From contig CAVPHD010000007.1 of the NCBI GenBank assembly GCA_963704165.1, forward strand, positions 151,150 through 215,149: a stretch of DNA of 64,000 nucleotides. Direction: 5' to 3'. Below, piece after piece: positions 19,643 through 58,553 of the stretch. Made by a program: the position numbers and the translations under genes. The notes under the pieces were generated by a model, which was given only the letters and a program-made list of their open reading frames with translations, was not told the DNA's origin and did not search any database. Origin of the DNA: an uncultured delta proteobacterium (GTDB lineage Bacteria; Myxococcota_A; UBA9160; SZUA-336). Positions within the stretch are counted from its first letter, which is position 1. Each line of letters starts with the position of its first letter.

Positions 19643-20995
19643 ATGACGATGGATTCCGAGACGCGAAAGCTGCTCGAAGAGGCCTGGTCGACGCCACTCT
19701 TCGAGTCGATCTTCACCCGACGCTCGCGGCGCTTCGGATTGGGCATGGAGATCCGGCACGGGCCCAATGCGTTCAAGTCGCAGGCCGAGCCGCTCCCCCT
19801 CTCGTTCGAGGAGGAAGCGCTGCTCTGCATGGCGGCGACGGGGATGTCCGGCATGAACCTCGCCGACATGCCCCACACGCGGAAGGAAGAGCTCGCTCCG
19901 GGAGAGGTCTGGGACGGCAACTGCAACACGATGCTCGAATACTCGGGCCGGACGTTCCCGAGCCCCTGCGGATCGCACGCCACGGAGCTCTTCTACGCCA
20001 ACGACGAGGGCACCTACGTCGTCAAGATCCGCGGCACGCACCCCGAGCGGATGCAGGAAATCTCACGGATGGACGATCTCGAGAAGCTCGTCGCGGTCTT
20101 CTCCGATCGGCGCGTGCAGATCTCGAGCGAGCGGATCGATCTGCCGCACTCCTCGCCGGCCTTCATGTCGTTCAACACCTGGAATGCGAACCAGCCGGGC
20201 ACGACGCTCTTCATGCCGGTCTGTGACGTCACCGAGGAGCTGATCAACGGGCTCATGCTCTTCCTCGAGCAAGGGAACTACCCCGTCGACATCGAGGACG
20301 GCATGAAGCCGCTCGGTTGCGAGAAGTGGGTGAAGCAGGGGCTGGCGACGATCCCGGTGCCGTACCAGAGCCTCGAGCCGCTCGTCGCCTTCGGCGCGTC
20401 GAGCGTCGAGGTCGGCTTCATGTCGCAGAATCTGCTGCTCGCCGAGACGGCGCTCGGCCTGGGCGGTTGGCCGTTCGGCGGTTTCAACGCGATGATGGCG
20501 CTGGGTGGCACACCTTTGTGTCGCGGTCTCGGTTTCCGCTTCGAGACGGCGGAGCACGGACCGCTCGCGGGGTTTCCATATCCGATCGGGAAGGACGGCG
20601 TATTCGAGACCCACCATCCCTACTACTTCAACGGATCGATCGACGACGCCGTCGATGACGTGATCGAGCGGAAGTGGGGCTCGGCTGGGATCTTCCATCC
20701 CTCGAACGCGGAGAACGCGCCGTACAAGAAGCCGGGGCAGATGGAGGTCGCCATCCCGCGCACGGATCCGGCGATCGTGCAGTGCACGAAGGACATCCTG
20801 AACGCGGTCTGGCGCAAGTGGGGGCGCTTTCCGGCGTTCGCCGACCCGTGCCTGCTGACGGTGATGGTGCAGGCGCAGCATCTCGACTGCGATTTCTACG
20901 ACGCCTACTACCGCGACGGCGCCTACACCGAACGGCATCGCCGACACCTCGAGCGCTGGCACTCGAAGTCGCGTCGCGCGCTGCGAGCCGCCTGA
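19643..20995 (+). CDS. Large nitroreductase-fold / SagB-like FMN oxidoreductase of unknown function
   Basis: RRSRRF, RTFPSP and SQNLLL...LGLGGWPFGG resemble nitroreductase/SagB FMN-binding motifs; RBS AGGAGG. Confidence 0.6.
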   Translation: MTMDSETRKLLEEAWSTPLFESIFTRRSRRFGLGMEIRHGPNAFKSQAEPLPLSFEEEALLCMAATGMSGMNLADMPHTRKEELAPGEVWDGNCNTMLEYSGRTFPSPCGSHATELFYANDEGTYVVKIRGTHPERMQEISRMDDLEKLVAVFSDRRVQISSERIDLPHSSPAFMSFNTWNANQPGTTLFMPVCDVTEELINGLMLFLEQGNYPVDIEDGMKPLGCEKWVKQGLATIPVPYQSLEPLVAFGASSVEVGFMSQNLLLAETALGLGGWPFGGFNAMMALGGTPLCRGLGFRFETAEHGPLAGFPYPIGKDGVFETHHPYYFNGSIDDAVDDVIERKWGSAGIFHPSNAENAPYKKPGQMEVAIPRTDPAIVQCTKDILNAVWRKWGRFPAFADPCLLTVMVQAQHLDCDFYDAYYRDGAYTERHRRHLERWHSKSRRALRAA

Positions 20996-20996
20996 G

Positions 20997-21227
20997 ATGA
21001 AAGTCGAGTCGCAAGCGGGCCGCTTCATTCTCTCGTTCGACAAGATGGAGCCGGGCGAGGGCGAGATCATCATCAGCGGAAAGATGGGCGTGTGGGATGC
21101 GCGCACCCACATGACGCTCGGCGAGTTCACGCGACTCCTGGGGATGACGCTGCGGCCGAGGATGCTCGCCTTCCTCGTGCGCGCGGTTCTCGGCTTCGGT
21201 GGCGGCAAGGCCTCCCGAACGGGCTGA
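20997..21227 (+). CDS. Small hypothetical protein
   Basis: Starts 1 nt after the previous stop; 76 aa. Confidence 0.6.
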   Translation: MKVESQAGRFILSFDKMEPGEGEIIISGKMGVWDARTHMTLGEFTRLLGMTLRPRMLAFLVRAVLGFGGGKASRTG

Positions 21228-21462
21228 CGGGGCCGCTGGGCGACGGGATCCGAGCTGGCATCCGGGTGCCGACCGGAGTGATCCGATGTGCAATAGTGCC
21301 CGGCGCCGTGCGGGCTCTTCCGCTCGCCGGGTAGGGACGTAAAGTGACGATTCGATGATCTGGCTGAGGCACCTTGGCACGGCGTTGTGCTCATCGGTCA
21401 GCTCCAAGGTCGGCGACGGCAGGCCCTCTGCTGGCCCGTCGCTTGCACACCGGCCGGGCGGA

Positions 21463-22910
21463 ATGTCGTCAGGTGACGCCGGGATCCGTGCATCGCTAGA
21501 GCTACGTGCGGCTTCGCGCCGCTGGCTCGCCCTGTCGCTCGTCGTGCTCGTGCTCGCGGGACTGTTCGCGCTTGCAGTCGTCGTCGGCCGCATGCCGCCC
21601 TTCGATCGCTTCGTGACCGACCCCGTCTTCTTCAAGCGCTGTCTGATCGCTCACGTCAACATGGCGCTCGTCGCGTGGTTCTACTCGATCACGGCCGCGC
21701 TCTTCTTCCTGCTCCCATCGCAGGGCCGAGCGGGCTGGCTCGCCCGGCACTCGGTCCACGTCGCTGGGTTGGGAATCGGGATGCAGCTGGCCGGCGCGGG
21801 GGTCCCCGGCGCGGCTCCCTTGCTCTCGAACTACATTCCGACGCTCGATCACTGGGTCTTCCAGTCCGGTCAGCTGGTCTTCGGGCTCGGCGTCCTGCTG
21901 AGCTTCGTGGACCGCCGATTCCTTCCCGGTGCCGAGCCGCTCGTCGTCGTGCCGCTGCCGCCCGGCGTGGTCAGCGGTCTTCGCGCAACGCGCGCGGCAC
22001 TCCTGCTCGCCGCGCTCACGTTCGGCTTCACCTGGTTGCGGGCGCCGAGTGGTCTCGAACCGGCCGTGTACGCGGATCTGCTCGTGTGGGGACTCGGGCA
22101 CGTTCTTCAGCTCGTGTGCGCGCTCGCGATGATCTCGCTCTGGCTCTGGCTGCTCGAGACCGTTCTCGGCGAGGCGCCCGTGAGCGCGCTCGCGTCGCGC
22201 TGGCTCTTTGCGGCGCTGGTTCTGCCGTGGTCGTTCGCGCCCGTGTTCGCGCTCGCGGGCACGAGCAGCATGGCGTACCAGGTCGGCTTCACCGAGCTCA
22301 TGCGTTGGTGCATCGTTCCGGTCGTCGCGATCTTTCTGATCTTGTCCCTTTCCAAGGTGGTGCGGCGTGGCGCGCAGGCCGGATCTCCGCCGCGTCGCTT
22401 TCGGACCCACATCTTTCGGCTATCCTCGTCAGCGGGTTCCTGACTGTGCTCGGATTCGGGCTCGGCGCGGCAATCCGCGGGCAGAGCACGATGGTCCCAG
22501 CTCACTATCACGCCTCGGTCGGAGCGATCACGGTTTCGTTCATGGCGGGAAGCTACCTGTTGCTTCCGGTGCTCGGTCTGAAGCTTCCCGAAGGGTGGTT
22601 GCGCCGCGTGAGAGCTTGGCAACCCACCGTCTACGGAACTGGAATGCTCGTGCTCGCCGGTGGCTTCGCGCTCGCGGGCGCGCACGGGATGGGGCGCAAG
22701 ATCTACGGAGCCGAGCAGGCCGCGCGCGGCACGGCAGAGACGCTGGGTCTGGGAATGATGGGTATCGGAGGCTTCGCCTCGATCGCGGGGGGAATCATGT
22801 TCCTCGCCGTCGTCGGCGTCGCTTGGATGAGTCGTGTCGGAGTCGGGTCGGCGTCGGAAAAGCTGGCCGCGTCGAGGAGGTTGGACTATGGCGCCGAAGG
22901 ACCCGGGTGA
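21463..22910 (+). CDS. Degenerate heme-copper oxidase subunit I-like membrane protein (frameshift near 22360)
   Basis: About 12 hydrophobic segments with AHVN, WGLGHVLQ and PAHYH, echoing the subunit I His motifs. Confidence 0.7.
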
Positions 22911-23043
22911 CATCCACCCGATTCAGAAACTCATGGACAATCCGTGGCTGCTGCTTTTTCTCGGGGTGCTCATCCCGACCGTCTCATTCACCCTCTGGGC
23001 GTGGTACGAGCTGTACGTACTGCCGCACGCAACACTGCCCTGA
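22888..23043 (+). CDS. Small single-TM subunit (subunit IIa-like)
   Basis: 51 aa, QKLMDNPWLLLFLG, immediately before the CuA subunit. Confidence 0.7.
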   Translation: MAPKDPGDIHPIQKLMDNPWLLLFLGVLIPTVSFTLWAWYELYVLPHATLP

Positions 23044-23058
23044 GCGAGGACTGACACC

Positions 23059-23586
23059 ATGAGTATCCATCCGCCCGCGGCAGGCTGGTTCAAGGCACCC
23101 CACGGAGCCGAGCGGCTCTGGATCGGGCTCGCGATGTGTTGGTGCTTGATCATGTCGATCGCGATGCCGTACTGGCACTTCTACGGCAAGCAGAACAGCA
23201 CGGGCGAGGCCTACCGGGTCGCGCCCGGGGACTTCGCGCAGCGCGTGCAGCGCTTCGTTTCCACCAATCAAGTGGGCGAGCTGAACGGTGTTCCCATCGT
23301 GCAGCCGGCGCCCGGCGGGGACGCGTATCTGCAGGCCCAGATGTGGTCCTGGTTTCCGGTCCTGAAGCTCAAGAAGGGGCAGACCTACCGGGTGCACGTC
23401 TCGTCGATCGACCTGCAGCATGGCTTCTCGCTTCACCCACTGAACATGAACTTCCAGGTCCTTCCGGGCTACGACCACGTGCTCACCCTGACTCCGACGA
23501 GCTCGGGGGAGTTCACGATCATCTGCAACGAGTTCTGCGGCATTGGCCACCACGCGATGGCCGGGCGCATCCTCGTCGAGGAGTAG
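23059..23586 (+). CDS. Heme-copper oxidase subunit II (single TM plus CuA domain)
   Basis: QHGFS...CNEFCGIGHHAM CuA motif. Confidence 0.93.
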   Translation: MSIHPPAAGWFKAPHGAERLWIGLAMCWCLIMSIAMPYWHFYGKQNSTGEAYRVAPGDFAQRVQRFVSTNQVGELNGVPIVQPAPGGDAYLQAQMWSWFPVLKLKKGQTYRVHVSSIDLQHGFSLHPLNMNFQVLPGYDHVLTLTPTSSGEFTIICNEFCGIGHHAMAGRILVEE

Positions 23587-23590
23587 AGTG

Positions 23591-25345
23591 ATGACGACCA
23601 CCACGATTGGCGCAGACGTGACTCTCGGCGAGACAGCCGGAAACCACCCGCGGGGGGAGGTGCGGGCCTGCGACACGACTGGCCTGCCGATCTGCCTGAC
23701 CGCGCAGCGCTTCATCAAGCTTCACGCGGTCGTCGCCGTCGTCTTTCTGCTGATCGGTGGCGTTGCCGCGATTCTGATCGGGCTCACTCGCTGGCCGGCC
23801 GTGCACCTTCTTCCCGCGGATTGGTACTACCGGCTGGTGACGCTCCACGGTCTGGACATGCTGATCGTGATGATCCTGAACTTCGAGATCGCGATTCTCT
23901 ATTTCGCGGGATCGTTCCTGCTGAACAGCCGGCTGTTCTCGAAGACGCTGTCGTGGATCACGTTCGCGCTGATGCTGATCGGCGCGGTGATGTGCAACGC
24001 GACGGTGCTGATGGGCAAGGCCGATGTCATGTACACGTCGTACGTACCGCTTCGCGCAGACCCGCAGTTCTATCTGGGATTGATCCTGTTCACCGTCGGG
24101 ACGCTGCTGGGCGTGATCAATTTCTTCGGCACGGTCTACATCGCCAAGCGCGACCACACCTACGAGGGCTCCGTGCCGCTCGTCACGTTCGGTGCGATTG
24201 CCGCGGCGATCATCGCGGTCGCTACGCTCCTGCACGCGGCCACGACGATGATCCCGACCTATCTGTGGTCGATCAACGTGCTCTCCTCGATCGACCCGGA
24301 GTGGTACCGCGTCACGTGGTGGGGACTCGGGCACATGAGCCAGCAGGTGAACGTCTGCGCGATGGTCTCGGTCTGGTATCTGCTCGGTACTCTCACGGTC
24401 GGCTCGAAGCCTCTGTCCGAGGCCGTCTGCAGGGGCGCGTTCCTGCTCTACATCCTGTTCATCAACCTCGCCTCGGCCCACCACGAGTTGGTCGATCCTG
24501 GCGTCAGCGCGAGCTGGAAGATCTGGAACACCTCGTACGCGATGTACCTCGCGGTGCTTGCGTCGATGATCCACGGCTTCACGGTCCCGGCGTCGATCGA
24601 GGTGGCGATGCGGGCGAAGGGCTTCAAGCGCGGTCTCTTCGGCTGGCTGGCCAACGCGCCGTGGTCCAACCCGGGCTTTTCGGGGTTCTTCCTGTCGCTG
24701 GTGATCTTCGGCTTCGGCGGCGGCATCACCGGAGTCACCCTCGGGACGCAGCAGATCAACATCATGGCGCACAACACGCTGCGCATCCCGGGCCACTTCC
24801 ACGTCACCGTCGTCGGGGGCACGGCGCTCGCGTTCATGGCGGTGACGTACTACGTCGTGCCGCTGGTCTTCCAACGTGAGTTCTACGCGAAGGCGTTGTG
24901 CCGTCTGCAGCCGTACCTCTTCGGGATCGGAATCACGACGATGGCGATCGGGATGTCGTTCGCCGGCTCCTACGGTGTTCCGCGCCGCCACTGGGACGTC
25001 GAGTTCAGCGGCTCGCCGTTCGCGCCCGGATTCGATTCCGGTGCGCACGTGATGCTCGGCCTGCTCGGCGTCGGCGCCGTCATCGCCTTCACGGCTGTGC
25101 TTCTCTTCGTCCTGCTCGTGGTCGCGGCCGTGTTCTTCGGCCGTTCGAATGCGGGCCGTCCGATGGAGCCCTGGCACGTCGAGCGTGGCGTGACCGCCGC
25201 GCCGAGGTCCTCGCACGGCGCGGGCGAGGAGGAAGACCACCGCACGCCGGGAACACTGGTGCTCGTGGGCGTGTTTCTGGCGTCGTTCGCGGTCTACTAC
25301 TTCGCGAACTGGCTCTGGCTCTCGGACGTCTGGCACGTTCGATGA
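23591..25345 (+). CDS. Heme-copper oxidase subunit I, B-family-derived; probable eNOR-type nitric oxide reductase
   Basis: Six His ligands (LHG, GHMSQQ, AHH, GHFH); Gln at His+4 where O2 reductases have the cross-linked Tyr. Confidence 0.82.
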   Translation: MTTTTIGADVTLGETAGNHPRGEVRACDTTGLPICLTAQRFIKLHAVVAVVFLLIGGVAAILIGLTRWPAVHLLPADWYYRLVTLHGLDMLIVMILNFEIAILYFAGSFLLNSRLFSKTLSWITFALMLIGAVMCNATVLMGKADVMYTSYVPLRADPQFYLGLILFTVGTLLGVINFFGTVYIAKRDHTYEGSVPLVTFGAIAAAIIAVATLLHAATTMIPTYLWSINVLSSIDPEWYRVTWWGLGHMSQQVNVCAMVSVWYLLGTLTVGSKPLSEAVCRGAFLLYILFINLASAHHELVDPGVSASWKIWNTSYAMYLAVLASMIHGFTVPASIEVAMRAKGFKRGLFGWLANAPWSNPGFSGFFLSLVIFGFGGGITGVTLGTQQINIMAHNTLRIPGHFHVTVVGGTALAFMAVTYYVVPLVFQREFYAKALCRLQPYLFGIGITTMAIGMSFAGSYGVPRRHWDVEFSGSPFAPGFDSGAHVMLGLLGVGAVIAFTAVLLFVLLVVAAVFFGRSNAGRPMEPWHVERGVTAAPRSSHGAGEEEDHRTPGTLVLVGVFLASFAVYYFANWLWLSDVWHVR

Positions 25346-26281
25346 CTCGCGCTGCTCAGAGTGGAAGAGCCGCTCGATTCTTCGACGGACGGCAGCTTTC
25401 CCGCATTTGCGCTCGGCGTCCTCGTGTTCTGGGAGATCCTGCTCCTGGCGATGCTGATCGCCCCGATCGGGCGAATCGGGTCTGCGGGGGTTCGCCGACG
25501 AGTTCCGCATCTGGTGCTTCGGGTACGACCCGTCGACCGGGCGCATGAATCCCGGATTGGTGATGGCGATGACGAGCCCGCCGATCGTGATCGGGTCCGG
25601 TGCTCGCGCTGGTCTGGTGGCAGCCGCTGCGGGAGCTGATGGTGCGCCGCCGCGGCTGGCTGCGGCCGTGCGTGGCGAGCGCGCTCACCGTCGCCATCGC
25701 CGCGTCGGGGCTCGTGGCGCTCGCTCGAGAGCCCGCCCGAGAGGATCTGCCCTTTCCAGCGGAGTCTCTGCGCACGGAGATACGCTCCCCCGAGCTGCGG
25801 CTCGTGAATCAGAACGGCGATACGGTCGATCTCGCCGAGCTGCGCGGAAATGTCGTGGTGCTCACGGCCATATACTCGTCGTGTCCGCTGAGCTGCCCAT
25901 TGATCCTCGGTCAGGCGAAGGCGGCGATCGCCGACGTCCCGGCGACGCTGCGCGGCGATCTGCAGGTGATCGCGGTCAGCATGGATCCCGAGCAGGATTC
26001 GCCCGAGGTACTCGCGGCGCTCGCTCGCCAGCACGCGGTCGAGGCTCCGGAGTACTCACTGGTCACGGGCGATCCGGTCGAAGTCGAGCGCATCCTCGAC
26101 GAGCTCGGGATCTCACGCACGCGGGATCCCGGAGACCGGAGTGATCGATCACGCGAATCTCTTCTTGCTCGTCGATCGCGCTGGCCGGATCGCCTACCGC
26201 CTCACGCTCGGCGAACGGCAACAGCGCTGGCTGACATCGGCGCTGGAGTTCCTGCTTCGTGAGGAGCCCGGTGGAGCGTGA
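25342..26281 (+). CDS. SCO1/SenC copper chaperone with N-terminal membrane region (several frameshifts)
   Basis: LVNQNG, YSSCPLSCP, VSMDPEQD, then IDHANLFLLVDR in the next frame. Confidence 0.85.
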
Positions 26282-28361
26282 TGCCATCGGCTTGGCCTCG
26301 GAGGTCGCCCATGGTGGCGAGGCCAAGGTCCGCGGCGAGGGTGTGCTGCGCGCACTCGAGCGACCGTTCCTCGCCTTCGATCGCGTGCTCTCTCGCGCGC
26401 TACCGGATGCGCTGAACCCGTTTCTCCAGACGGGGGCCGTGGCGGTGACGGCGACCCTCGTCGCCACGATCACCGGCGTGCTGCTGCTGTTCTGGTACCG
26501 GCCGAGCGTGCACCTGGCGTACTCCTCGGTGGCGGCGATGTCCGACTCCGCGTGGAGCGCGGGCCTGCTGCGCTCGCTGCATCGCTACAGCTCAGATGCC
26601 GCGCTCTTCTTCGCTCTCGTGCACGCTGCGCGGCTCTTCTTCGAGCGACGCTTCGCCGGTGCGCGCTGGGTTGCCTGGGTGACCGGAGTGGCCTCGCTCC
26701 TGGTGGTCTGGGTTCTCGGCTGGACCGGCTACTGGCTGGTCTGGGACGTGCGCGCGAAGTACGTCGCGGTAGAGACGGCGCGAGTTCTCGACGTGCTGCC
26801 GATTTTCGCCGATCCGATGGGGCGCTCGTTCCTCTTCGAGGAGGGAATCAACTCTCTCCTGTTCTTCGTCGTGTTCTTCTTCCACATGCTCGCCCCGCTG
26901 GCCCTCGCGTTCCTGCTCTGGCTGCATCTGACCCGAACCGCGCGCGCGCGCTTTCTCACGCGCCTGCCGATGACGATCTGGGTCGTCGGGACGCTCTCAC
27001 TGCTCTCTGTGGCGTATCCGGCGACGAACGCCGAGCCCGCTCGAATGACCGCACGCGCCGAGTCGTTCGGCATGGACTGGTGGTACCTGTTTCCGCTCGC
27101 GCTCGGGCAGCGGCTCTCGGGCGGCGCGATCTGGGCGGTCTGCCTGATGGGCGGAGCGCTCGCCGTCTCCGCGCCGTGGACGCTGCGCAAGCGCGTCGGC
27201 CGGAGCGCGAAGGTCGATCCTGCGCGCTGCAACGCCTGCGAGCAGTGTTACGTGGACTGTCCCTACGAGGCGATCTCGATGATCCCGCGCGAGAACCCCG
27301 AGAAACGGAAGAGGTACGCGCTCGAGGCGTTCGTAGATCCCGCGAAGTGCGTCTCGTGCGGGATCTGTGTCGCTTCGTGCAACTCGATCGGCACGGACCT
27401 TCCGGGATTCCCGCTTCGCGACCAGCGACAGCGCGTTTCGACCTGGCTCGACCAGGTGAAGGCGAGCGGCGAGAGTGCGGGTGTCGCGTTCGTCTGCGCG
27501 CAGTCGGCCGCAGCCGGGCTCGAGATCGAATCGGAGACGGGATTGTGCAGTGAGCTGCCCGGCTGGCGCGTTCTCGAGGTCCCTTGTGCCGGATGGGTGC
27601 ACTCGATGTCGATCGAACTCGCCTTGCGACGGGGAGCCAGGAAAGTCCTGATCGCGAGCTGTCCGCCCGGGTCGTGTCACTTCCGTGAAGGACCGGAATT
27701 CCTCGATCAGCACCTGGCGGGAACTCGGCCCCCGTCCATCCGCGAGAAGTACGTCCCCGGGGATGCCGTCGAGGTCGTCTGGTTCGGCCGCGGAAGCGAG
27801 CGAGAGCTCGTTCGCGCGGCGAGAGGCGCGCTCGCGGACGAGCGTCGGCCAGCGGCCGCGGTGCCCGGACGATCCCTTGCCGGCGTCGCATCGGTCGTCC
27901 TCGCGGTCGCCGTCAGCGCCATCATCGGTGTTGTCAGCGATTGGGGCTACGCCGCGCACGCGTCCCCGGGAGCGGAGCTCGTGGTCACGTTCAAGCACCC
28001 CGGAGAGCGAAGCGAAGTCTGCCGCGAGCGGACACCGGAAGAGCTCGAGCGACTCCCGCAGCACATGCGCGAGGCGAAGGTCTGCGAGCGGGCGCGTGCT
28101 CCCGTGCGTCTGCGTGTGAACGTCGACGGCGCACACCGGATCGCACAGACCTACGCTCCGAGCGGGATCTGGAGCGACGGCTCGAGCGTCGCGGTGGTAC
28201 CGTTGCGCGTCACGCCGGGGGTGCACGAGATCCGGGTCGAGATCGGAGATAGTCACGATCCCACGGAATGGACCCATGTCAGCGAGCAGACGCTCGAGTT
28301 CGACGAGAGCGTCCGGCGGGTGATCGCGTTCGATCGATCGTCCGGATTCAAGGTGCACTAG
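26271..28361 (+). CDS. Fusion of cytochrome b (PetB-like), 2x[4Fe-4S] ferredoxin, MvhD/FlpD-like [2Fe-2S] domain, TM helix and soluble C-terminal domain
   Basis: His pairs SLHRY..LVH and FFHM..WLH; CNACEQCYVDCP, CVSCGICVASC; FVC..VPCAG..SCPPGSCHFREG. Confidence 0.85.
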   Translation: MERDAIGLASEVAHGGEAKVRGEGVLRALERPFLAFDRVLSRALPDALNPFLQTGAVAVTATLVATITGVLLLFWYRPSVHLAYSSVAAMSDSAWSAGLLRSLHRYSSDAALFFALVHAARLFFERRFAGARWVAWVTGVASLLVVWVLGWTGYWLVWDVRAKYVAVETARVLDVLPIFADPMGRSFLFEEGINSLLFFVVFFFHMLAPLALAFLLWLHLTRTARARFLTRLPMTIWVVGTLSLLSVAYPATNAEPARMTARAESFGMDWWYLFPLALGQRLSGGAIWAVCLMGGALAVSAPWTLRKRVGRSAKVDPARCNACEQCYVDCPYEAISMIPRENPEKRKRYALEAFVDPAKCVSCGICVASCNSIGTDLPGFPLRDQRQRVSTWLDQVKASGESAGVAFVCAQSAAAGLEIESETGLCSELPGWRVLEVPCAGWVHSMSIELALRRGARKVLIASCPPGSCHFREGPEFLDQHLAGTRPPSIREKYVPGDAVEVVWFGRGSERELVRAARGALADERRPAAAVPGRSLAGVASVVLAVAVSAIIGVVSDWGYAAHASPGAELVVTFKHPGERSEVCRERTPEELERLPQHMREAKVCERARAPVRLRVNVDGAHRIAQTYAPSGIWSDGSSVAVVPLRVTPGVHEIRVEIGDSHDPTEWTHVSEQTLEFDESVRRVIAFDRSSGFKVH

Positions 28362-28371
28362 GAGAGAACCC

Positions 28372-29709
28372 ATGACGACGAGCGCCCAGCTCATCGCGAC
28401 TCTCGCGCCGCGCCTCTCGCGCCTTCGCGACTACGTCGATCTGACGCGTCCCGGCATCCTCGTCGGCGTGCTGCTGACGGCAATGCCGGGACTCGCGCTG
28501 GACCCGGTCTCGCGCCCGGACATCGGCACGGTTCTCCTGGTGTTGCTCGGAGTTGCGCTCGTCGGGGGCGGATCGAGCGCGCTCAATGCATGGTGGGAGC
28601 GCGACGCCGATGCGCGCATGGCGCGAACACGCGGTCGGCCGCTGCCATCGGGGCGCCTGCCCGCGCCGCGCGCGCTGATCTTCGGAGTCGCGTCCTCGAT
28701 TGCCGGTCTGGCCGCCCTCGGGCTGGCCGGTGGTTGGCTTCCCGCTGCGATCGGCGCAGCGACGCTTCTTCACTACCTGCTCGTCTACACCGTCTGGCTG
28801 AAGCCGCGCAGCGCATGGAATACGCTGGTCGGCGCCTTGGCGGGATCCACGGCACCGCTGATCGCCGATGCGGCCGTACACGGACGCGTCGGCGTCTGGG
28901 GCCTGTCCCTTTTCGCGATCGTGCTCTTCTGGCAGCCACCGCATGTCTTCGCGATCGCCTTGTACCGGCGCGAGGAGTACGCCGCCGCGCCGTTTCGGAT
29001 GCTGCCGGCGGTCGTCGGCGACGTCGCGACGCGACGCTTCAGTCTCGCCTTCGCGTTCGCGCTGATCCCGATCTCGATGCTGCCGTTCTTCGGGGGTGTG
29101 TTCGGCGCTGGCTACGCGGTGGTGGCCGCGCTCGGGGGCGTCGCGTTCAGCGCTTCGATCGTCGCTTCGATGCGGGCGCGAACGGATGCCGCCGATCGGC
29201 GCGTGTTCATCGTGTCGCTGTCGTACCTCGCAGCTCTGTTCGGGGCGATGATGCTCGAGATCGGAGCCAGAGGAGTGGGAATGGGCCCGCGCGAGCTGCT
29301 ACCGCACGTGAACGGCGCGCTCAACGCCGCGATCACCGCACTCCTGATCGCCGCATTCGTCGCGATCCGCCGGGGCCGACGCGAGACCCACCGACGGCTG
29401 ATGGTCTCGGCCGTATCTCTCGGGACCGCGTTCGTCGGCCTCTACGTCCTCCAGACCGCGCTGCTCGGCCACCAGCGCTTCCCCGGAGACGATTGGGTGC
29501 GAACGCTCTTCCTGTCGGTGCTGACGACGCACACGATCCTCGCGGTCGTCGTCGTCCCGCTGGTGGCCCGCGCTCTGTTTCTGGGGCTTCGAGAGCGCTT
29601 CGTCGAGCATCGCCGCATCGTCCGCGTGGCCTATCCCATCTGGCTCTACGTCGCGCTGACGGGGCTGTTCATCTACTGGATGAACAACTTCGTGCGACCG
29701 GGATCCTAG
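28372..29709 (+). CDS. ctaB: Heme O synthase (protoheme IX farnesyltransferase) in frame with a DUF420/CtaM-like domain
   Basis: ERDADARMARTRGRPLPSG, YTVWLK, FWQPPH; C-terminal HRRLM...HTILA..HRRI..YPIWLYVALTG. Confidence 0.88.
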   Translation: MTTSAQLIATLAPRLSRLRDYVDLTRPGILVGVLLTAMPGLALDPVSRPDIGTVLLVLLGVALVGGGSSALNAWWERDADARMARTRGRPLPSGRLPAPRALIFGVASSIAGLAALGLAGGWLPAAIGAATLLHYLLVYTVWLKPRSAWNTLVGALAGSTAPLIADAAVHGRVGVWGLSLFAIVLFWQPPHVFAIALYRREEYAAAPFRMLPAVVGDVATRRFSLAFAFALIPISMLPFFGGVFGAGYAVVAALGGVAFSASIVASMRARTDAADRRVFIVSLSYLAALFGAMMLEIGARGVGMGPRELLPHVNGALNAAITALLIAAFVAIRRGRRETHRRLMVSAVSLGTAFVGLYVLQTALLGHQRFPGDDWVRTLFLSVLTTHTILAVVVVPLVARALFLGLRERFVEHRRIVRVAYPIWLYVALTGLFIYWMNNFVRPGS

Positions 29710-29742
29710 AAGCTTCGTAGCCGCGATCTCGTCCGATGGCGT

Positions 29743-29758
29743 TATGATACCCATCATA
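29743..29758. promoter_or_regulatory. Palindromic operator TATGAT-ACCC-ATCATA
   Basis: Same core as 19573-19588; upstream of the acyl-CoA dehydrogenase operon. Confidence 0.65.
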
Positions 29759-29817
29759 GACGCGCCGACGTGCGCTCCATAGCCTTCGACGCATCCATCG
29801 CGTCGAGGAGGACACCC

Positions 29818-31023
29818 ATGCCGATCACGGACATCGAAGTCGGGCTCAGCGACGAGCAGCGCAGCATCCGCGACAATGCGCGGAAGTTCGCCGACGAGGT
29901 GATGCGGCCAGCCGGGATCGCGCTCGATCGTCTCTCCGACCCGGCGCAGGTGATCGCTCCGGACTCGCCGCTCTGGCGAGTTCTCGAGAAGTCGCGCGAG
30001 CTCGGTTTCGAGCAGCTCGAATCTTCGGCCGGTGACCTCTCTCCGGGAGAGGCTGCGCGCATCCGCTACCTGGTCAACGAGGAACTGGGTCGCGGGGATT
30101 CGGGTCTCGCGATCAGTCTGGCGGTCGCGAGCTTCCACCGCATCTTCGCGCAGATGTCCGGCCGCCCGGCGCTGATCGAGCGCTTCTGCGGCGAGTCTTC
30201 GCGCGAGATCGGCTGCTGGGCGATCACCGAGCCCGATCATGGCAGCGATTCGCTGACGGTCACCGAGCCGCACTTCCGCGATCCCGCGTTGAAACCGAAC
30301 TGTGTGGCCCGCAAGGACGGCAAGGAGTGGGTGATCCAAGGCCAGAAGGCCGCGTGGGTCTCGAACGGCACGATCTCCACCGTGGCGTCGCTGTTCTGCA
30401 CGATCGATCCGAAGGCGGGATTCATCGGCGGGGGCGTGTGCCTCGTTCCGCTCGACCAGCCCGGCGTTTCTCGTGGCAAGCCACTCGACAAGATCGGACA
30501 GCGAGCCTTGAATCAGGGCGAGATCTTCTTCGACGACGTGCGCATTCCCGAGGAGTACATGATCGTCGGAGCCGAGGGGTACGGCACCGTCGTCGAGATG
30601 GTGCTGACGATGGCGAATGCCTCGATGGGCGCGATCTTCGTCGGCGTAGCCCAGGCGGCGCTCGAACTCGCGGTCGCCTACGCGAAGGAACGCGTGCAAG
30701 GGGGGCTGCCGATCATCCAGCACCAGAGCGTGCGCGGACGACTCTTCAAGATGTTCGCGCGCACGGAAGCCGCACGAGCGCTGGCGCGTCGCGTCGCGCT
30801 CTACAATGCGACGAACCCGCCGCTCCTGCAGTACTCGATCGCCTCCAAGACCTTCGTCACGCAGACCGCATTCGAGGTGGCGAGCGAGGCGCTCCAGATC
30901 TTCGGCGGAAACGGACTGACGCGCGAATACCCGATCGAGAAGCTCGTGCGTGACGCGCGCGCTTCGATGATCGAGGACGGTTGCAACGAGGTTCTCGGCC
31001 TGGTCGGCGCGACGCGGCTCTGA
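29818..31023 (+). CDS. Acyl-CoA dehydrogenase
   Basis: AITEPDHGSD, GQKAWVSNG, QIFGGNG...YPIEKLVRDAR; RBS GAGGAG. Confidence 0.93.
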   Translation: MPITDIEVGLSDEQRSIRDNARKFADEVMRPAGIALDRLSDPAQVIAPDSPLWRVLEKSRELGFEQLESSAGDLSPGEAARIRYLVNEELGRGDSGLAISLAVASFHRIFAQMSGRPALIERFCGESSREIGCWAITEPDHGSDSLTVTEPHFRDPALKPNCVARKDGKEWVIQGQKAAWVSNGTISTVASLFCTIDPKAGFIGGGVCLVPLDQPGVSRGKPLDKIGQRALNQGEIFFDDVRIPEEYMIVGAEGYGTVVEMVLTMANASMGAIFVGVAQAALELAVAYAKERVQGGLPIIQHQSVRGRLFKMFARTEAARALARRVALYNATNPPLLQYSIASKTFVTQTAFEVASEALQIFGGNGLTREYPIEKLVRDARASMIEDGCNEVLGLVGATRL

Positions 31024-33105: not shown

Positions 33106-34722
33106 ATGCGCGAGCAGAGCCCGCTGATCCTCGGTGATCTGGTCCGGATCCGTGCGAACGAGAAGCCCGATCTCGACGTCCTGACGTTCGAGCACCTCTC
33201 GCTCGACGAGGGCCGCACGCCGGACGAGGTGCGGACCTACTCCGGGCTCGCGACCCATGCGAACCGGATCGCAGCCACTCTCATCGCGCGCGGGCTCGCG
33301 CGCGGTGACCGCTTCGGGTTGATGATGCGAAATCACCCGGAGTACGTGGAGACGATGACCGCCGCCTCGATCACGGCGACGGTCTTCGTGCCGATCGACC
33401 CACGCACGCGTGGCGAGAAGCTCGCGTTCTTCCTCGGTCGGGCGGGCTGCAAGGGCATCGTCTGTGCGGACTATTGCCTGCCCGCCATCGAAGCCGTGCG
33501 CGGCTCGCTCCCCGACCTCGAATGGATCCTGGCGCTCGACACGGGCGAGGGCGACGACGCCGTGCCTCTGTCCTCGGTGAAAGGGGTGGAGTCGCTGCGC
33601 GAGGTCTTGTCGAAGCCGGTGCCGGGCGTCGATTCGCGCCTCGTCGACGCGAACGATCCCCTGCAGATCATCTACACCTCCGGCACCACGGGAGATCCGA
33701 AGGGCGTGGTGTTTCCGAACGCGCGATTCGGCGGCTTCGCGATGCTCGGCGCATTGCTCGGCTATCAGGCCGACGAGCGGCCCTACACGGGTCTCTCGCT
33801 CACCCACGGAAACGCCCAGGCCGTGACGCTGGGTCCATCGCTGTCGATGGGGCTGCGCGCGGTCTTCAGTCGCAGGTTCACGAAGTCGCGGCTCTGGGAC
33901 GTCTGTCGCTTGCACGGGTGCACCACGTTCTCTCTGCTCGGCGGCATGTCGACCGCGATCTACAGCGAACCGCTGCGGAAGAACGACGCCGACAACCCCG
34001 TGCGCAAGGTGATCAGCGCGGGCATGCCCGCTGCGATCTGGGCGTCGTTCGAGAAGCGCTTCAACGTGAAGATCTTCGAGTGGTACGGCGCCGTCGAGGG
34101 CGGACTCGCATTCAAGCCGATTGGCGAGGGTCCGATCGGCTCGTTCGGGAAGTCGGCGCCGGGGCTCGACATGCGCGTGCTCGACGACAACGACCGCGAG
34201 TGCGCGCCCGGCGAGATCGGCGAGATCTGCTCCCGCCCGTCGAGCGGCGCGTCGGCCGAGGTGGAGTACTTCGAGAACGCCGAAGCGTCCGCGCAGAAGA
34301 CCCGTGGCGGCTGGCTGCGCAGCGGTGACATGGGTTCGCGCGACGCGGAGGGGTGGTTCTTCTTTTCGCATCGAAAGGGCGGCGGCATCCGTCACAACGG
34401 CGACTTCGTGAATGCCGGATTCGTCGAGAAGCTGATCGCCGAGCAGCCGAGCGTCTCCGATGTCTTCGTCTACGGCGTGCCGGCCGCATCTGGATCGCCC
34501 GGCGAGAAGGACGTGGTCGCCGCGATCGTCCCGCAATCCGGCGCGACGTTCGACCCGGCCGCGATCTATGCCGCGTGCCGCGCCGGTCTCGAGTCGAATT
34601 TCGTTCCGTCCTACCTTCAGGTCGTCGACGAGATTCCGAAGACCGCGTCCGAGAAGCCGCAGGAGCGATTTCTGCTCGATCGCTTCGCACCCGATGCGAA
34701 GAATGTCTACGTCGAGCGGTAA
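33106..34722 (+). CDS. AMP-dependent acyl-CoA ligase (CaiC-like)
   Basis: YTSGTTGDPKG, YGAVEG, SGD, PKTASEK. Confidence 0.9.
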   Translation: MREQSPLILGDLVRIRANEKPDLDVLTFEHLSLDEGRTPDEVRTYSGLATHANRIAATLIARGLARGDRFGLMMRNHPEYVETMTAASITATVFVPIDPRTRGEKLAFFLGRAGCKGIVCADYCLPAIEAVRGSLPDLEWILALDTGEGDDAVPLSSVKGVESLREVLSKPVPGVDSRLVDANDPLQIIYTSGTTGDPKGVVFPNARFGGFAMLGALLGYQADERPYTGLSLTHGNAQAVTLGPSLSMGLRAVFSRRFTKSRLWDVCRLHGCTTFSLLGGMSTAIYSEPLRKNDADNPVRKVISAGMPAAIWASFEKRFNVKIFEWYGAVEGGLAFKPIGEGPIGSFGKSAPGLDMRVLDDNDRECAPGEIGEICSRPSSGASAEVEYFENAEASAQKTRGGWLRSGDMGSRDAEGWFFFSHRKGGGIRHNGDFVNAGFVEKLIAEQPSVSDVFVYGVPAASGSPGEKDVVAAIVPQSGATFDPAAIYAACRAGLESNFVPSYLQVVDEIPKTASEKPQERFLLDRFAPDAKNVYVER

Positions 34723-34738
34723 CCGGGCCGAGAGCGAG

Positions 34739-36139
34739 ATGTCTCGTCCGCCGATCGAGCTCGACCCGGAGCACGCCGAAGCCATCTTGATGCGCTACGC
34801 GGGCACCGGGCCGCGCTACACGAGCTACCCGACCGCGCCGGTCTGGACCGAAGCGTATGGTGCGGGAAGCTTCGAGGACGACCTGGCCGCGAGCTCACCG
34901 GGAGCCGAGCTCTCGGTCTACGTCCACGTTCCGTTCTGCACCAGCCTCTGTCACTTCTGCGCGTGCAATCGCGTGATCACGCGGAAGGCCGAGCTCCCGG
35001 CGCGATACCTCGACACGATCGAACGCGAGATCGGACGCGTGCGAGCGGCGCTCCCCGGCGAACGACCGGTCGTGCAGCACCACTGGGGTGGAGGAACGCC
35101 GACCCATCTCGATCCGGCGCAGGTCAAGCGGCTCTTCCGCGCCGTGAACGACGCGTTTCCGGCGGTGGAGGGCGCGGAGATCTCGCTCGAGGTGGACCCC
35201 CGCGTCACCGGCGACGCTCACATCGATGCGCTGCGCGAATGCGGATTCAACCGCATCTCGCTCGGCGTGCAGGACTTCGCGCCGCGCGTGCAGGCTGCGA
35301 TCCATCGCGAGCAGAGCCCGGAGCTGACCGGGCGACTCGTGGAACGCGCACGCGCGAGCGGCTTCGAGAGCGTGAACCTCGACCTGATCTACGGACTGCC
35401 GTTTCAGACCCTCGAATCGACTTCCCAGACGCTCGACGAGGTGCTCGCGATCGCTCCGGATCGGATCGCGCTCTACGCGTACGCGCACGTCACGTGGGTT
35501 GCGAAGCAGCAGCGCGGTTTCGAGCGACAGGACCTGCCGGCTCCCGGGCTGCGGTTGCGAATTCAGCTCGCCGCGATCCGGCGTCTGCTCGAGGCGGGCT
35601 ACGTGTACATCGGAATGGACCACTTCGCGCGACCCGACGATGCGCTCGCCGACGCGGTCCGCGAGCGAACGCTGCGGCGCAACTTCATGGGCTACACGAC
35701 GCGCGCGGGGGTCGACATGATCGGCCTGGGTCCGAGCGCGATCAGCGAACTTTCCCGGAGCTACGCGCAGTCCGTTCGGGAGCTCGAGCCCTGGCACGAG
35801 GCGATCGACTCCGGTCGCTTGGCGACGCTGCGCGGGCATCGGCTCTCGCGCGACGACGTCGAGCGGCGCTGGGTGATCGGCGAGATCATGTGCCACGAGG
35901 AGGTCCGCGCGGCCGAGTTCCGCGAGCGCTTCGGTCTCGAATTCGCGCAGCGCTTCGCGCGGGAACGTGCGGCGCTCGAGCCTTTCGTCGCCGACGGGCT
36001 CGTCGCGTTCGAACCCGAAGGCGGACTGCGCGTGACGCCGCTCGGGCGGCTGGTTCTGCGGAACGTGGCGATGGTCTTCGACGCGTATCTCGAAGGACAG
36101 CGCTCTGGAGATCGCCCGCTCTTCAGCCAGACCGTCTGA
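34739..36139 (+). CDS. hemN: Oxygen-independent coproporphyrinogen III oxidase (radical SAM)
   Basis: GPRYTSYPTA, HVPFCTSLCHFCAC, GGGTPT, GMDHFA, RNFMGY. Confidence 0.95.
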   Translation: MSRPPIELDPEHAEAILMRYAGTGPRYTSYPTAPVWTEAYGAGSFEDDLAASSPGAELSVYVHVPFCTSLCHFCACNRVITRKAELPARYLDTIEREIGRVRAALPGERPVVQHHWGGGTPTHLDPAQVKRLFRAVNDAFPAVEGAEISLEVDPRVTGDAHIDALRECGFNRISLGVQDFAPRVQAAIHREQSPELTGRLVERARASGFESVNLDLIYGLPFQTLESTSQTLDEVLAIAPDRIALYAYAHVTWVAKQQRGFERQDLPAPGLRLRIQLAAIRRLLEAGYVYIGMDHFARPDDALADAVRERTLRRNFMGYTTRAGVDMIGLGPSAISELSRSYAQSVRELEPWHEAIDSGRLATLRGHRLSRDDVERRWVIGEIMCHEEVRAAEFRERFGLEFAQRFARERAALEPFVADGLVAFEPEGGLRVTPLGRLVLRNVAMVFDAYLEGQRSGDRPLFSQTV

Positions 36140-39912: not shown

Positions 39913-40383
39913 ATGCGCGGCGACCCGGCAGTGATCGAGGCGTTGAACGGCATCCTGACCGCCGAACTCACCGCGATCAACCAGTACTTCATCCACTCGA
40001 AGATGTGCCGCAACTGGGGCTTCCTCCGGCTCGCCAAGCACAACCACCACGAATCGATCGAAGAGATGAAGCACGCCGATTCGGTCATCGAGCGGATCCT
40101 CTTTCTCGACGGCCTGCCGAACATGCAGCGCCTCGGAGCGATTCGCGTGGGTGAGACCGTGCCCGAGCAGTTCAAGGTCGATCTCGCTCTCGAGCTGGAC
40201 GCGGTCAAGCGCTACAACGCGGCGATCGCGCTCTGCGCGGAGAAGAGCGACGCGGGAACCCGCGAGATGCTCGAGGACCTGCTGAAAGACGAAGAGAGCT
40301 CGGTCGATTGGCACGAGACGCAGCTCGATCTGATCGAGAAGATCGGCGCGGAGCTCTATCTGGCGGAGCAGCTCGGGGAATAG
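39913..40383 (+). CDS. bfr: Bacterioferritin
   Basis: [29 protein letters not shown]. Confidence 0.95.
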
Positions 40384-55828: not shown

Positions 55829-56576
55829 CGCTTCCTTCGACGCGCTCTTTGGCGGCGCGCAGATCGTCCCAGACCGCCTGTCGCGTCTCGCGTGTGTAGT
55901 TCCGCAGCACATAGGCGGGATGGTAGGTGGGCATCACGGGCGTTCCCTGCCACTCCTGCCACTGCCCGCGAAGTTTCGTGATCGCCACGCTGCGTCCGAG
56001 CAGCGCGGAGATCGCGGGCCTCCCGAGCGTCACGATCACGCTCGGGGCGATCGCGGCAATCTGTTGCTCGAGAAACGGTCGACAGGTCGATACCTCCTCG
56101 GGGCGAGGGTCTCGATTCCCGGGTGGCCGACACTTCACGATGTTGCAGATGTACACGTCTTCCCGTCGCCAACCCACCGCCTCGATCATCTTCGTGAGCA
56201 GCTCGCCCGCTCGTCCGACGAAGGGCCGGCCGCTCCTGTCCTCTTCCTCGCCCGGGCCCTCGCCGATGAAGACGAGGCGCGCGTCGGCCGCACCCTCGCC
56301 GAAGACGAGCTGGCTTCGCTTCTCGCAAAGCCCACAGCGACGGCAATCGCCGAGATCCGCACGGACGGCGTCGAGCCGCGACGCGTGCGCGTTCGCCGCT
56401 TCGTCGATCCGTAGCGGCGGGCGGAGCGGAGCGACCCGTGGCGTGAACGGCTTCTCGGCGCGCGCGGGCGCGGCTCTCGGCGGACGAGGGATGTGCTCGA
56501 CCCCTTCGGCGACGAGCTCTTCGAGCGAATCGCGGATCCGTCGAAGCGTCTTCGCTCGCTCGTTCGCGATGGTCAC
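55818..56576 (-). CDS. Uracil-DNA glycosylase family 4
   Basis: CRRC.LC, GEGPG.EED..GRPFVG, KCRPP.NR, YHP. Confidence 0.93.
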   Translation of the reverse strand: MTIANERAKTLRRIRDSLEELVAEGVEHIPRPPRAAPARAEKPFTPRVAPLRPPLRIDEAANAHASRLDAVRADLGDCRRCGLCEKRSQLVFGEGAADARLVFIGEGPGEEEDRSGRPFVGRAGELLTKMIEAVGWRREDVYICNIVKCRPPGNRDPRPEEVSTCRPFLEQQIAAIAPSVIVTLGRPAISALLGRSVAITKLRGQWQEWQGTPVMPTYHPAYVLRNYTRETRQAVWDDLRAAKERVEGSGET

Positions 56577-58477: not shown

Positions 58478-58553
58478 GAAACCTCGGGTTCTTGAAGTCG
58501 GGCGATGGTAGGAAGGGCTGCGCGGGGGTGTCAATCGACGTAGACTGCGGGCG

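What the first reader, a model, noticed from the sequence alone, without database searches (positions are those of the whole stretch)
26271..28361. Cytochrome b + ferredoxin + MvhD-like fusion inside the NOR operon: possible dedicated electron-input module
Seen: one 696-aa protein joins a PetB-like diheme membrane domain (two His pairs 14 residues apart), two CxxCxxCxxxC clusters, a Cys pattern like the MvhD/FlpD [2Fe-2S] subunit, another TM helix and a soluble tail with two Cys. No Rieske or cytochrome c1 gene is nearby. Known: MvhD normally couples hydrogenase or formate dehydrogenase to heterodisulfide reductase. Inference: it may be an uncharacterised wire from cytoplasmic low-potential donors or quinol to the CuA-NOR, or a reductase needed for cofactor maturation.
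Basis: partly seen in the sequence, partly recalled or inferred. Interest (0 to 1): 0.8.

Follow-up and report, generated by a model that had tools for sequence, protein, structure and literature searches.

The report
Membrane electron wire beside NO reductase
This gene encodes a membrane cytochrome b with conserved binding sites for two haems and three iron-sulfur clusters; it sits next to one type of nitric-oxide reductase (eNOR) in almost every genome examined that has either, and it likely carries electrons outward across the membrane for that enzyme, a job nobody has yet tested although the fusion itself is already in print.

Summary
Observation confirmed. The 696-aa ORF is a bc-type cytochrome b (helices A-G, four invariant haem His, Qo motif PEWY changed to MDWW). 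A 2x[4Fe-4S] plus MvhD-like [2Fe-2S] module is inserted in its cytoplasmic F-G loop, and a periplasmic beta-sandwich ends the chain (model pLDDT 95). The neighbouring oxidase carries the eNOR-diagnostic Gln. In 653 genomes from three phyla, eNOR and the fusion each occurred 41 times, 39 times together, and their sequences diverge in step. eNOR without it exists (Thermus and Thermomicrobium plasmids, one planctomycete). The host has no HdrA or [NiFe]-hydrogenase match. NAD(H)-flavin modules accompany some relatives. Best reading (0.45): an outward wire from a cytoplasmic NAD(H)/ferredoxin-level donor to eNOR's copper side. Rivals are an assembly reductase (0.28) and reverse, bifurcating flow (0.15). 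The fusion is in print (Kao and Hunte 2014, PDWF-FeS clade), and so is a cytochrome b/Fe-S gene in one genus's eNOR operon (Becker 2026 preprint, which calls it unusual; here it is close to the rule). This scan found the same system before on other DNA (eleven notes seen).

The parts
26271..28361 (+). Whole gene, 696 aa: cytochrome b / 2x[4Fe-4S] / MvhD-like / helix G / periplasmic beta-sandwich
   Evidence: AlphaFold2 model pLDDT 95.0, pTM 0.92
26415..27179 (+). bc-type cytochrome b, helices A-F (residues 49-303); haem ligands H104, H118, H205, H219; no haem ci Cys
   Evidence: (Z 23.2 to Corynebacterium QcrB, model 49-310)
27072..27083 (+). Qo-site motif MDWW, aligned to PEWY; Asp269 kept in 90 of 97 homologues
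   Evidence: profile-profile alignment; census
27207..27401 (+). 2x[4Fe-4S] ferredoxin domain (C320, C323, C326, C330, C360, C363, C366, C370), inferred to be cytoplasmic
   Evidence: topology by homology and loop charges
27480..27833 (+). MvhD/FlpD-like [2Fe-2S] domain (C409, C439, C464, C469)
   Evidence: ferredoxin plus MvhD stretch matches the C-terminal part of HdrA2
27870..27938 (+). Seventh TM helix, equivalent to cytochrome b helix G
   Evidence: model 43-566 aligns with mouse cytochrome b 25-346; homologue P0166 lacks the Fe-S insert and joins helix F to this helix
27963..28358 (+). Periplasmic beta-sandwich without a known cofactor motif; Cys584/Cys605 pair; Px(H/N)MR hairpin; a separate adjacent gene in split forms
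   Evidence: (best Z 8.9, generic)
23591..25345 (+). eNOR subunit I (H86, H248, Q252 in place of the cross-link Tyr, H297, H298, H402, H404)
   Evidence: diagnostic Gln per PMC8756737
23059..23586 (+). eNOR subunit II with CuA ligands H121, C156, E158, C160, H164, M167
22888..23043 (+). Small one-helix subunit, 51 aa, conserved ahead of subunit II
   Evidence: hit in 59 of 80 loci
25342..26262 (+). Membrane-anchored SCO copper chaperone; frameshifted twice in this assembly, intact in relatives
28372..29709 (+). Haem O synthase (CtaB) fused to DUF420
21355..22910 (+). Subunit-I paralogue that keeps four His but lacks the His-His metal ligands; one frameshift near 22400 in this assembly

Best explanation
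The protein is a Rieske-less bc-type cytochrome b that travels with eNOR and likely works as that enzyme's private outward electron wire. Inferred path: a cytoplasmic NAD(H)-linked flavoprotein or ferredoxin reduces the MvhD-like [2Fe-2S] cluster; electrons pass through two [4Fe-4S] clusters and haems bH and bL to the retained Qo-like site at the periplasmic face. They would then reach the CuA centre of subunit II, directly or by way of quinol, with the beta-sandwich as a predicted docking surface. This would let eNOR turn over, or stay reductively activated, independently of the bc1/ACIII-cytochrome c chain. Shown: domain make-up, conserved ligands, fold homology, genomic coupling. Inferred: cofactor occupancy, topology, direction, donor, acceptor.
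For: All ligands for two haems and three clusters are conserved across 97 homologues at 23-56% identity. The domains pack into one confident model (pTM 0.92). The topology puts the Fe-S module inside and the beta-sandwich outside. Coupling to eNOR: both in 39 of 653 genomes, eNOR alone in 2, fusion alone in 2, and 3 of those 4 are cut by contig ends. The link survives several gene orders, including divergent ones. An eNOR core gene lies in 59 of 61 close and 23 of 25 distant loci with at least 4.5 kb upstream. Distance matrices of fusion and subunit I correlate (Spearman 0.85, 97 loci). NAD(H) pointers: locus L147 has a NuoF-like FMN/NADH flavoprotein gene overlapping the fusion's stop, followed by a second copy of the cytochrome b-Fe-S gene; relatives with FAD/NAD(H) domains are reported in Ferrigenium and Alicycliphilus. 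The Ferrigenium proteins were in the proteome with eNOR under denitrifying growth. Outward flow from low-potential clusters to b haems is downhill (textbook knowledge, recalled). In the host's phylum sample only 1 of 28 fusion genomes has another PF00033 cytochrome b, against 79 of 223 others.
Against: eNOR exists without the fusion in its cluster (Thermus and Thermomicrobium plasmids, planctomycete G550). Purified Rhodothermus eNOR reduces NO with TMPD/ascorbate alone. The flavoprotein neighbour is seen in only 1 of 159 loci, so the donor is unnamed for nearly all members. The host has an ACIII-like cluster that could feed eNOR through cytochrome c. Outward flow would conserve little or no energy (inference). 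Most other conserved neighbours are assembly factors. The lack of other cytochromes b is not general: Ferrigenium has bc1, and the family-stratified p is 0.008 or 0.053 depending on one stop-ridden hit.
Confidence: 0.45

Rival explanations
1. Same wire and same outward direction, but low-flux and for assembly or repair only: it reduces Cu(II), SCO or CuA thiols, or serves haem a synthesis, in the manner of CcoG, CcdA/DsbD or NosR (analogies recalled).
For: The gene sits between sco and ctaB here. SCO is hit in 78 of 80 close loci. Among 83 downstream genes scanned, ctaA occurs 6 times, thioredoxin 3, HemN 3 and PCuAC 2. Purified eNOR is active without a reported cytochrome b. A wasteful outward flux suits a low-flux job (inference).
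Against: The whole subunit-IV-like half and the Qo acid are kept, which a metal or thiol reductase would not need (inference). The putative metal ligand His598 is Asn in 48 of 57 full-length homologues of the proteobacterial type. The tail Cys pair is absent in 32 of 97. G550 has eNOR plus SCO but no fusion.
Confidence: 0.28
2. Reverse, bifurcating flow: quinol is oxidised at the Qo-like site, one electron goes to CuA and NO, the other crosses bL and bH to the Fe-S clusters and reduces NAD+ or ferredoxin (the quinol:NAD+ supercomplex proposed for Ferrigenium).
For: Qo acid kept and Qi His not kept (position 224 is A/S/N), so bH can only hand electrons to the Fe-S module. NAD(H)-binding variants exist. 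Fusion genomes rarely have another cytochrome b in the host's phylum.
Against: No Rieske motif within 6 kb in 159 loci and no cofactor motif in the beta-sandwich, so the mobile high-potential acceptor that bifurcation needs is missing. The Qo Pro is lost in nearly all homologues. The step is uphill in redox and against the membrane potential (recalled energetics). The window's genes point to a heterotroph with little need for reverse electron flow (inference).
Confidence: 0.15
3. The MvhD domain plays its methanogen role and docks a hydrogenase, formate dehydrogenase or HdrA, coupling H2 or formate oxidation to NO reduction.
For: All four MvhD Cys positions are present, and the ferredoxin-MvhD stretch matches the C-terminal part of HdrA2.
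Against: The host shows no HdrA, no [NiFe]-hydrogenase large subunit and no other FlpD domain (84% complete; formate dehydrogenase and [FeFe]-hydrogenase not searched). No such family is among the frequent neighbours or the 83 downstream genes (three molybdopterin oxidoreductases there were not typed further).
Confidence: 0.06
4. A passenger or decaying remnant of a bc complex with no function tied to eNOR.
For: A few loci lack an eNOR core gene (L046, L078, L114, L153), and genome G252 gave no subunit I match.
Against: Invariant cofactor ligands; linkage kept through gene rearrangements; co-divergence; near-exclusive co-occurrence in three phyla.
Confidence: 0.03

Closest known systems
PDWF-FeS clade of cytochrome b (Kao and Hunte 2014, PMC4122944; Magnetospirillum magneticum AMB-1, Turneriella parva, Alicycliphilus denitrificans)
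   Same: [quoted passage not shown]
   Different: Motif here is MDWW (Pro lost). The passages read name no link to eNOR, no periplasmic beta-sandwich, no insertion topology and no function. Those sequences were not aligned here.
Cytochrome b/[Fe-S] genes of the Ferrigenium straubiae eNOR operon (Becker et al., bioRxiv 10.64898/2026.01.22.701106, section 6.5.2)
   Same: A cytochrome b plus Fe-S gene in an eNOR operon with sco and haem O synthase; a supercomplex with eNOR is proposed.
   Different: There are two genes there, one with FAD and NADH domains. The authors call them rather unusual and suggest them as Ferrigenium markers, whereas here the pairing holds in 39 of 41 eNOR genomes from three other phyla. 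No MvhD domain is named in that text (0 hits).
Cytochrome b of bc1 and cytochrome b6 plus subunit IV of b6f (PDB 7q21_B, 7o37_C, 6rqf_I)
   Same: Fold of helices A-G, four haem His, ef loop with a Qo acid.
   Different: No Rieske or c1 partner, no haem ci Cys, no Qi His, a three-cluster Fe-S insert in the F-G loop, and a beta-sandwich where helix H would be.
C-terminal ferredoxin domain of HdrA plus MvhD (PDB 5odc; fused HdrA2/QmoB type)
   Same: Ferredoxin followed by an MvhD domain with the same four Cys positions.
   Different: No FAD-bifurcating HdrA core, no HdrBC or hydrogenase partner in the host; tied to a membrane cytochrome b instead.
eNOR of Rhodothermus marinus (Murali et al. 2024, PMC11214002)
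   Same: The neighbouring oxidase has no cross-link Tyr, a CuA subunit II and haem a synthesis genes.
   Different: The parts of that paper read mention only ctaA/ctaB as operon partners. The natural electron donor was not determined (assays used TMPD/ascorbate).

Membership tests
PDWF-FeS clade of cytochrome b | Cytochrome b fused to a 4Fe-4S domain and an MvhD/FlpD domain | tested here: met
   against the description
PDWF-FeS clade of cytochrome b | Qo motif PDWF or PDWY | tested here: inconclusive
   Asp-Trp-aromatic is kept (MDWW; xDWF is the commonest form) but the Pro is replaced in nearly all homologues
PDWF-FeS clade of cytochrome b | No Rieske gene in the cluster | tested here: met
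   0 of 159 loci have a bc-type Rieske motif within 6 kb, and none is in the window
PDWF-FeS clade of cytochrome b | Branches with the Magnetospirillum and Turneriella proteins | not tested
Rieske/cytochrome b (bc1, b6f) complexes | Di-haem cytochrome b fold with four axial His | tested here: met
Rieske/cytochrome b (bc1, b6f) complexes | Rieske protein and cytochrome c1/f partner | tested here: not met
   by contrast 17 of 20 other cytochrome b loci fetched carry a Rieske motif
Rieske/cytochrome b (bc1, b6f) complexes | Qi site His or haem ci for a Q-cycle | tested here: not met
   no Cys at the haem ci position in 97 of 97; position 224 is A/S/N (equivalence to the Qi His is recalled)
MvhD / HdrA-MvhD electron-bifurcating module | Four Cys positions of the [2Fe-2S] cluster | tested here: met
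   alignment to 5odc_D, 8rvu_F, 7bkb_F; all four in 74 of 97; which Cys ligate the cluster is recalled
MvhD / HdrA-MvhD electron-bifurcating module | HdrA and a hydrogenase or formate dehydrogenase as partners | tested here: not met
   no HdrA or [NiFe]-hydrogenase match in the 84% complete host; formate dehydrogenase not searched
eNOR (neighbouring oxidase) | Gln in place of the cross-link Tyr of subunit I | tested here: met
   H248-x3-Q252 invariant in 63 of 63; criterion from PMC8756737
eNOR (neighbouring oxidase) | CuA-containing subunit II next to subunit I | tested here: met
   six CuA ligands invariant in 87 of 87
eNOR (neighbouring oxidase) | NO reductase activity, haem As | not testable with these tools
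   needs biochemistry; the host has ctaB in the operon and ctaA elsewhere

The most novel reading that the evidence does not exclude
The fusion and eNOR form a Rieske-free bifurcating supercomplex: quinol is split at the Qo-like site, CuA takes the place of the Rieske protein as the high-potential acceptor, and NO reduction drives the second electron across the membrane to NAD+ or ferredoxin. That would be a widespread energy-coupling machine in hundreds of denitrifiers and the first quinol bifurcation without a Rieske cluster.
Probability: 0.15. Interest if true: 0.92.

Novelty: new member of a known kind. Interest (0 to 1): 0.55.

Why it matters
eNOR is reported to be about as widespread as the classical NO reductases (547 GTDB genomes, 2,709 metagenome hits; PMC11214002), and it makes the greenhouse gas N2O, yet its natural electron supply and assembly are unknown. 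A partner gene found beside it in about 95% of the genomes sampled turns that gap into a one-gene knockout and a one-protein titration. It also shows a whole bc-type cytochrome b reused without a Rieske protein, which bears on how Q-cycle enzymes were built from modules. It argues against using the plain cytochrome b/Fe-S gene as a marker for Ferrigenium.

Tried and rejected
Complex prediction of the fusion with subunit II was not available, so there is no result on binding either way. No RNA holder was listed for the operon, which is no evidence on expression. The beta-sandwich has no specific solved relative (best Z 8.9, in the generic range; it was not folded alone), and Atlas look-alikes are unnamed hypothetical proteins. 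The idea that His598-Met599 is a copper site or mimics the Rieske His was weakened: His is Asn in 48 of 57 full-length proteobacterial-type homologues. A redox role for the tail disulfide was weakened (absent in 32 of 97). The SCO-cytochrome b fusion P0161 looks like a read-through and was not used. A search for FAD/NAD-domain variants among the best 120 hits of two searches found none; the evidence for them rests on two papers and locus L147. 'Replaces the bc complex' was not adopted as the mechanism: kin are not independent, p ranges 0.008-0.053, ACIII may be the hidden variable, and Ferrigenium has both. One query (C-terminal domain) was out of frame and its counts were dropped. No Rfam match in 20000-30500. 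Paper searches listed no experimental study of this protein; Dibrova et al. 2013 was not held, subscription journals are not covered, one figure PDF among the PNAS supplements had no text, and the preprints' supplements were not seen and may show operon maps.
Full report
Observation. The frame 26271-28361 (+) is open for 696 residues. Pfam finds Cytochrome_B (E 7e-18), two Fer4 stretches and FlpD (E 2.6e-11), and NCBIfam matches the ferredoxin-plus-FlpD stretch to positions 571-727 of the HdrA2 model. The family is large: 575 clusters at 50% identity score E under 1e-30. In a diverse alignment of 97 proteins (23-56% identity) the four haem His are invariant, the eight ferredoxin Cys are in 96-97, and Cys409/439/464/469 are in 95, 94, 94 and 74. 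These four align with the Cys positions of solved MvhD chains.

Anatomy. A model built on that alignment has pLDDT 95.0 and pTM 0.92 (an earlier model on 41 close relatives gave 78.2). It matches bc-type cytochrome b over about 260 residues (Z 23.2 to 7q21_B). The match to mouse cytochrome b runs from model 43-566 to chain 25-346, so the seventh helix (534-556) takes the place of helix G (helix naming recalled). The Fe-S module is therefore inserted in the loop between helices F and G, which by homology and loop charge faces the cytoplasm. One natural homologue, P0166, lacks the insert and joins F to G directly (a single case). Profile alignment to 12 fetched cytochromes b places M268-D269-W270-W271 on P-E-W-Y. 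The acid is kept in 90 of 97 and the Pro is lost. There is no haem ci Cys in any of 97 and no His at the Qi-equivalent position. Residues 565-696 form a beta-sandwich with only generic matches (best Z 8.9). In split forms, helix G plus this domain is a separate gene directly downstream (61 of 118 proteobacterial-type hits are the short form).

The operon. The order is a subunit-I paralogue, a 51-residue peptide, CuA subunit II, subunit I, SCO, the fusion and ctaB-DUF420. Subunit I has H248-x3-Q252 where oxygen reductases have Tyr, invariant in 63 of 63 relatives; that Gln is the published eNOR criterion (PMC8756737, passages). The CuA ligands are invariant in 87 of 87. The paralogue and SCO are frameshifted here and intact in relatives; nosZ and an nrfD-like gene elsewhere in the genome are also in pieces, so assembly errors are likely.

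Coupling to eNOR. In 251 genomes of the host's phylum, subunit I matched in 26 and the fusion in 28; all 26 have both on one contig. The two extra fusions lie at contig ends. In 201 genomes around a Verrucomicrobiota centre the same 6 have both. In 201 around a Planctomycetota centre, 9 have eNOR and 7 have the fusion beside it; one of the other two contigs ends after SCO, and G550 is a true fusion-less cluster. In total: 653 genomes, 41 with eNOR, 41 with the fusion, 39 with both. Three of these are the centres, chosen for having the fusion; without them the figures are 650, 38, 38 and 36. Among fetched loci with at least 4.5 kb upstream, an eNOR core gene is present in 59 of 61 close and 23 of 25 distant ones (19 and 54 shorter loci left out). 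The exceptions are L046 (eNOR on another contig of that genome), L078 (no match in its genome), L114 and L153. Distant relatives keep the link in downstream, upstream and divergent gene orders. Pairwise distances of fusion and subunit I correlate over 97 loci (Spearman 0.85; nearest neighbour agrees in 82 of 97); these loci include near-duplicates and kin, so this is descriptive. Against universality: of 12 plasmid records with an eNOR-type subunit I at 43% identity or more, only the Defluviimonas one has the fusion; ten Thermus records and Thermomicrobium do not (their chromosomes were not searched). In a quick tree the three fusion-less subunits I sampled sit on long branches inside the fusion-linked radiation, which suggests loss but does not prove it. 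Pseudomonadota, Bacteroidota, Chloroflexota and archaea were not sampled at genome level.

Partners. Frequent neighbours are SCO, the paralogue, ctaB, an Rrf2 regulator (49 loci), nirS, a nirK-like gene and ctaA. Among 83 of 86 candidate downstream genes scanned there were ctaA (6), thioredoxin (3), HemN (3), PCuAC (2) and three molybdopterin oxidoreductases, and no hydrogenase or Hdr family. The host (84% complete) gave no HdrA, no [NiFe]-hydrogenase, no second FlpD domain and no second cytochrome b. It has nirS, a broken nosZ, ctaA, complex I, an ACIII-like cluster and a qNOR-family gene with one metal-ligand His replaced by Asn. One locus of 159, L147, has a NuoF-like FMN/NADH flavoprotein gene overlapping the fusion's stop codon, followed by a second cytochrome b-ferredoxin-MvhD gene. 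In the host's phylum sample, 1 of 28 fusion genomes has another PF00033 hit (and that one holds six stops), against 79 of 223 others. Stratified over five informative families, p is 0.008 if that hit is ignored and 0.053 if it is counted (one further mixed family was left out because its size was not shown).

Mechanism. Five redox centres in series across a membrane make a wire. With no Qi site, haem bH can trade electrons only with the Fe-S module (inference). With no Rieske cluster there is no standard Q-cycle. The downhill direction, by usual potentials and by membrane potential, is outward (recalled energetics). The only cytoplasmic partners that nature points to are NAD(H) flavin modules (L147; the Ferrigenium and Alicycliphilus variants in print). 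I therefore rank first an outward wire that feeds eNOR's copper side (0.45), then the same wire used only for assembly or repair (0.28), then reverse bifurcating flow (0.15), an MvhD-hydrogenase coupling (0.06) and a passenger (0.03). The evidence does not separate the first two well. Purified Rhodothermus eNOR works with TMPD alone, the gene sits among assembly factors, and outward flux saves no energy; on the other side, the Qo acid and the whole subunit-IV-like half are kept, and the candidate metal and thiol residues of the periplasmic domain are not universal.

What is known. [quoted passage not shown] Becker et al. 2026 (bioRxiv 10.64898/2026.01.22.701106; abstract, passages and section 6.5.2) report two cytochrome b/Fe-S genes in the Ferrigenium eNOR operon, call them rather unusual, and propose a quinol:NAD+ supercomplex. 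Murali et al. 2024 (PMC11214002; parts 1-3 of 6, supplement text searched without hits; preprint passages) define eNOR and mention only ctaA/ctaB as operon partners. Passages of PMC6431628, PMC8879329, PMC10734462, PMC5600118 and 10.1101/2023.11.21.568154 did not mention this fusion. Nine searches listed no experimental study. The scan's own notes show eleven earlier reports of the same system on other DNA; they are not independent support.

Verdict. Real, widespread and tightly tied to eNOR, but the architecture is in print and the function is untested. New member of a known but uncharacterised kind; interest 0.55.

Noticed in passing
window 21355-22910 (+): Subunit-I paralogue: in 68 of 68 relatives it keeps the His equivalents of H86, H248, H402 and H404 and an Arg-Lys pair, but lacks the His-His metal ligands; found in 53 of 61 close and 10 of 25 distant loci. 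It may be a haem-carrying assembly scaffold.
   Followed up: partly
G000:C4:206699-208933 (L212), outside the window: qNOR-family protein (E 1e-115 to PDB 3ayf) with His-His changed to His-Asn, next to nirS and near nosZ. This resembles putative NO dismutase (signature recalled), which could supply O2 for haem a synthesis.
   Followed up: partly
L147:6446-11381 (+): eNOR cluster with the fusion, a NuoF-like NADH/FMN flavoprotein overlapping its stop, a second cytochrome b-ferredoxin-MvhD gene without the tail, and two subunit-I paralogues.
   Followed up: partly
window 28372-29709 (+): Haem O synthase fused to DUF420; a DUF420 hit lies near the fusion gene in 9 of 80 close loci, in most of them as a separate gene.
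   Followed up: no
window 56573-58834 (-): 753-aa frame with nine CxxCH motifs plus ResA-like thioredoxin and UshA-like matches: a multihaem cytochrome fused to thiol-redox domains, or several genes merged by frameshifts.
   Followed up: no
window 34460-36139 (+) and 39913-40383 (+): HemN (oxygen-independent coproporphyrinogen oxidase) 6 kb downstream of the operon, and a bacterioferritin-like gene further on (by eye).
   Followed up: no
host phylum sample: Genomes with eNOR plus the fusion almost never carry another bc-type cytochrome b (1 of 28 against 79 of 223); may reflect ACIII versus bc lineages.
   Followed up: partly
L092, L093, L207: The three fusion-less eNORs share a His-x-Ala-Gln-Gln-Val-Asn-Leu motif and long branches, a possible sub-type with another electron supply.
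   Followed up: partly
window 21355-26262 and G000:C4:190690-192489: Several frameshifts in otherwise conserved genes (paralogue, SCO, nosZ, nrfD-like) point to indel errors in this assembly.
   Followed up: no
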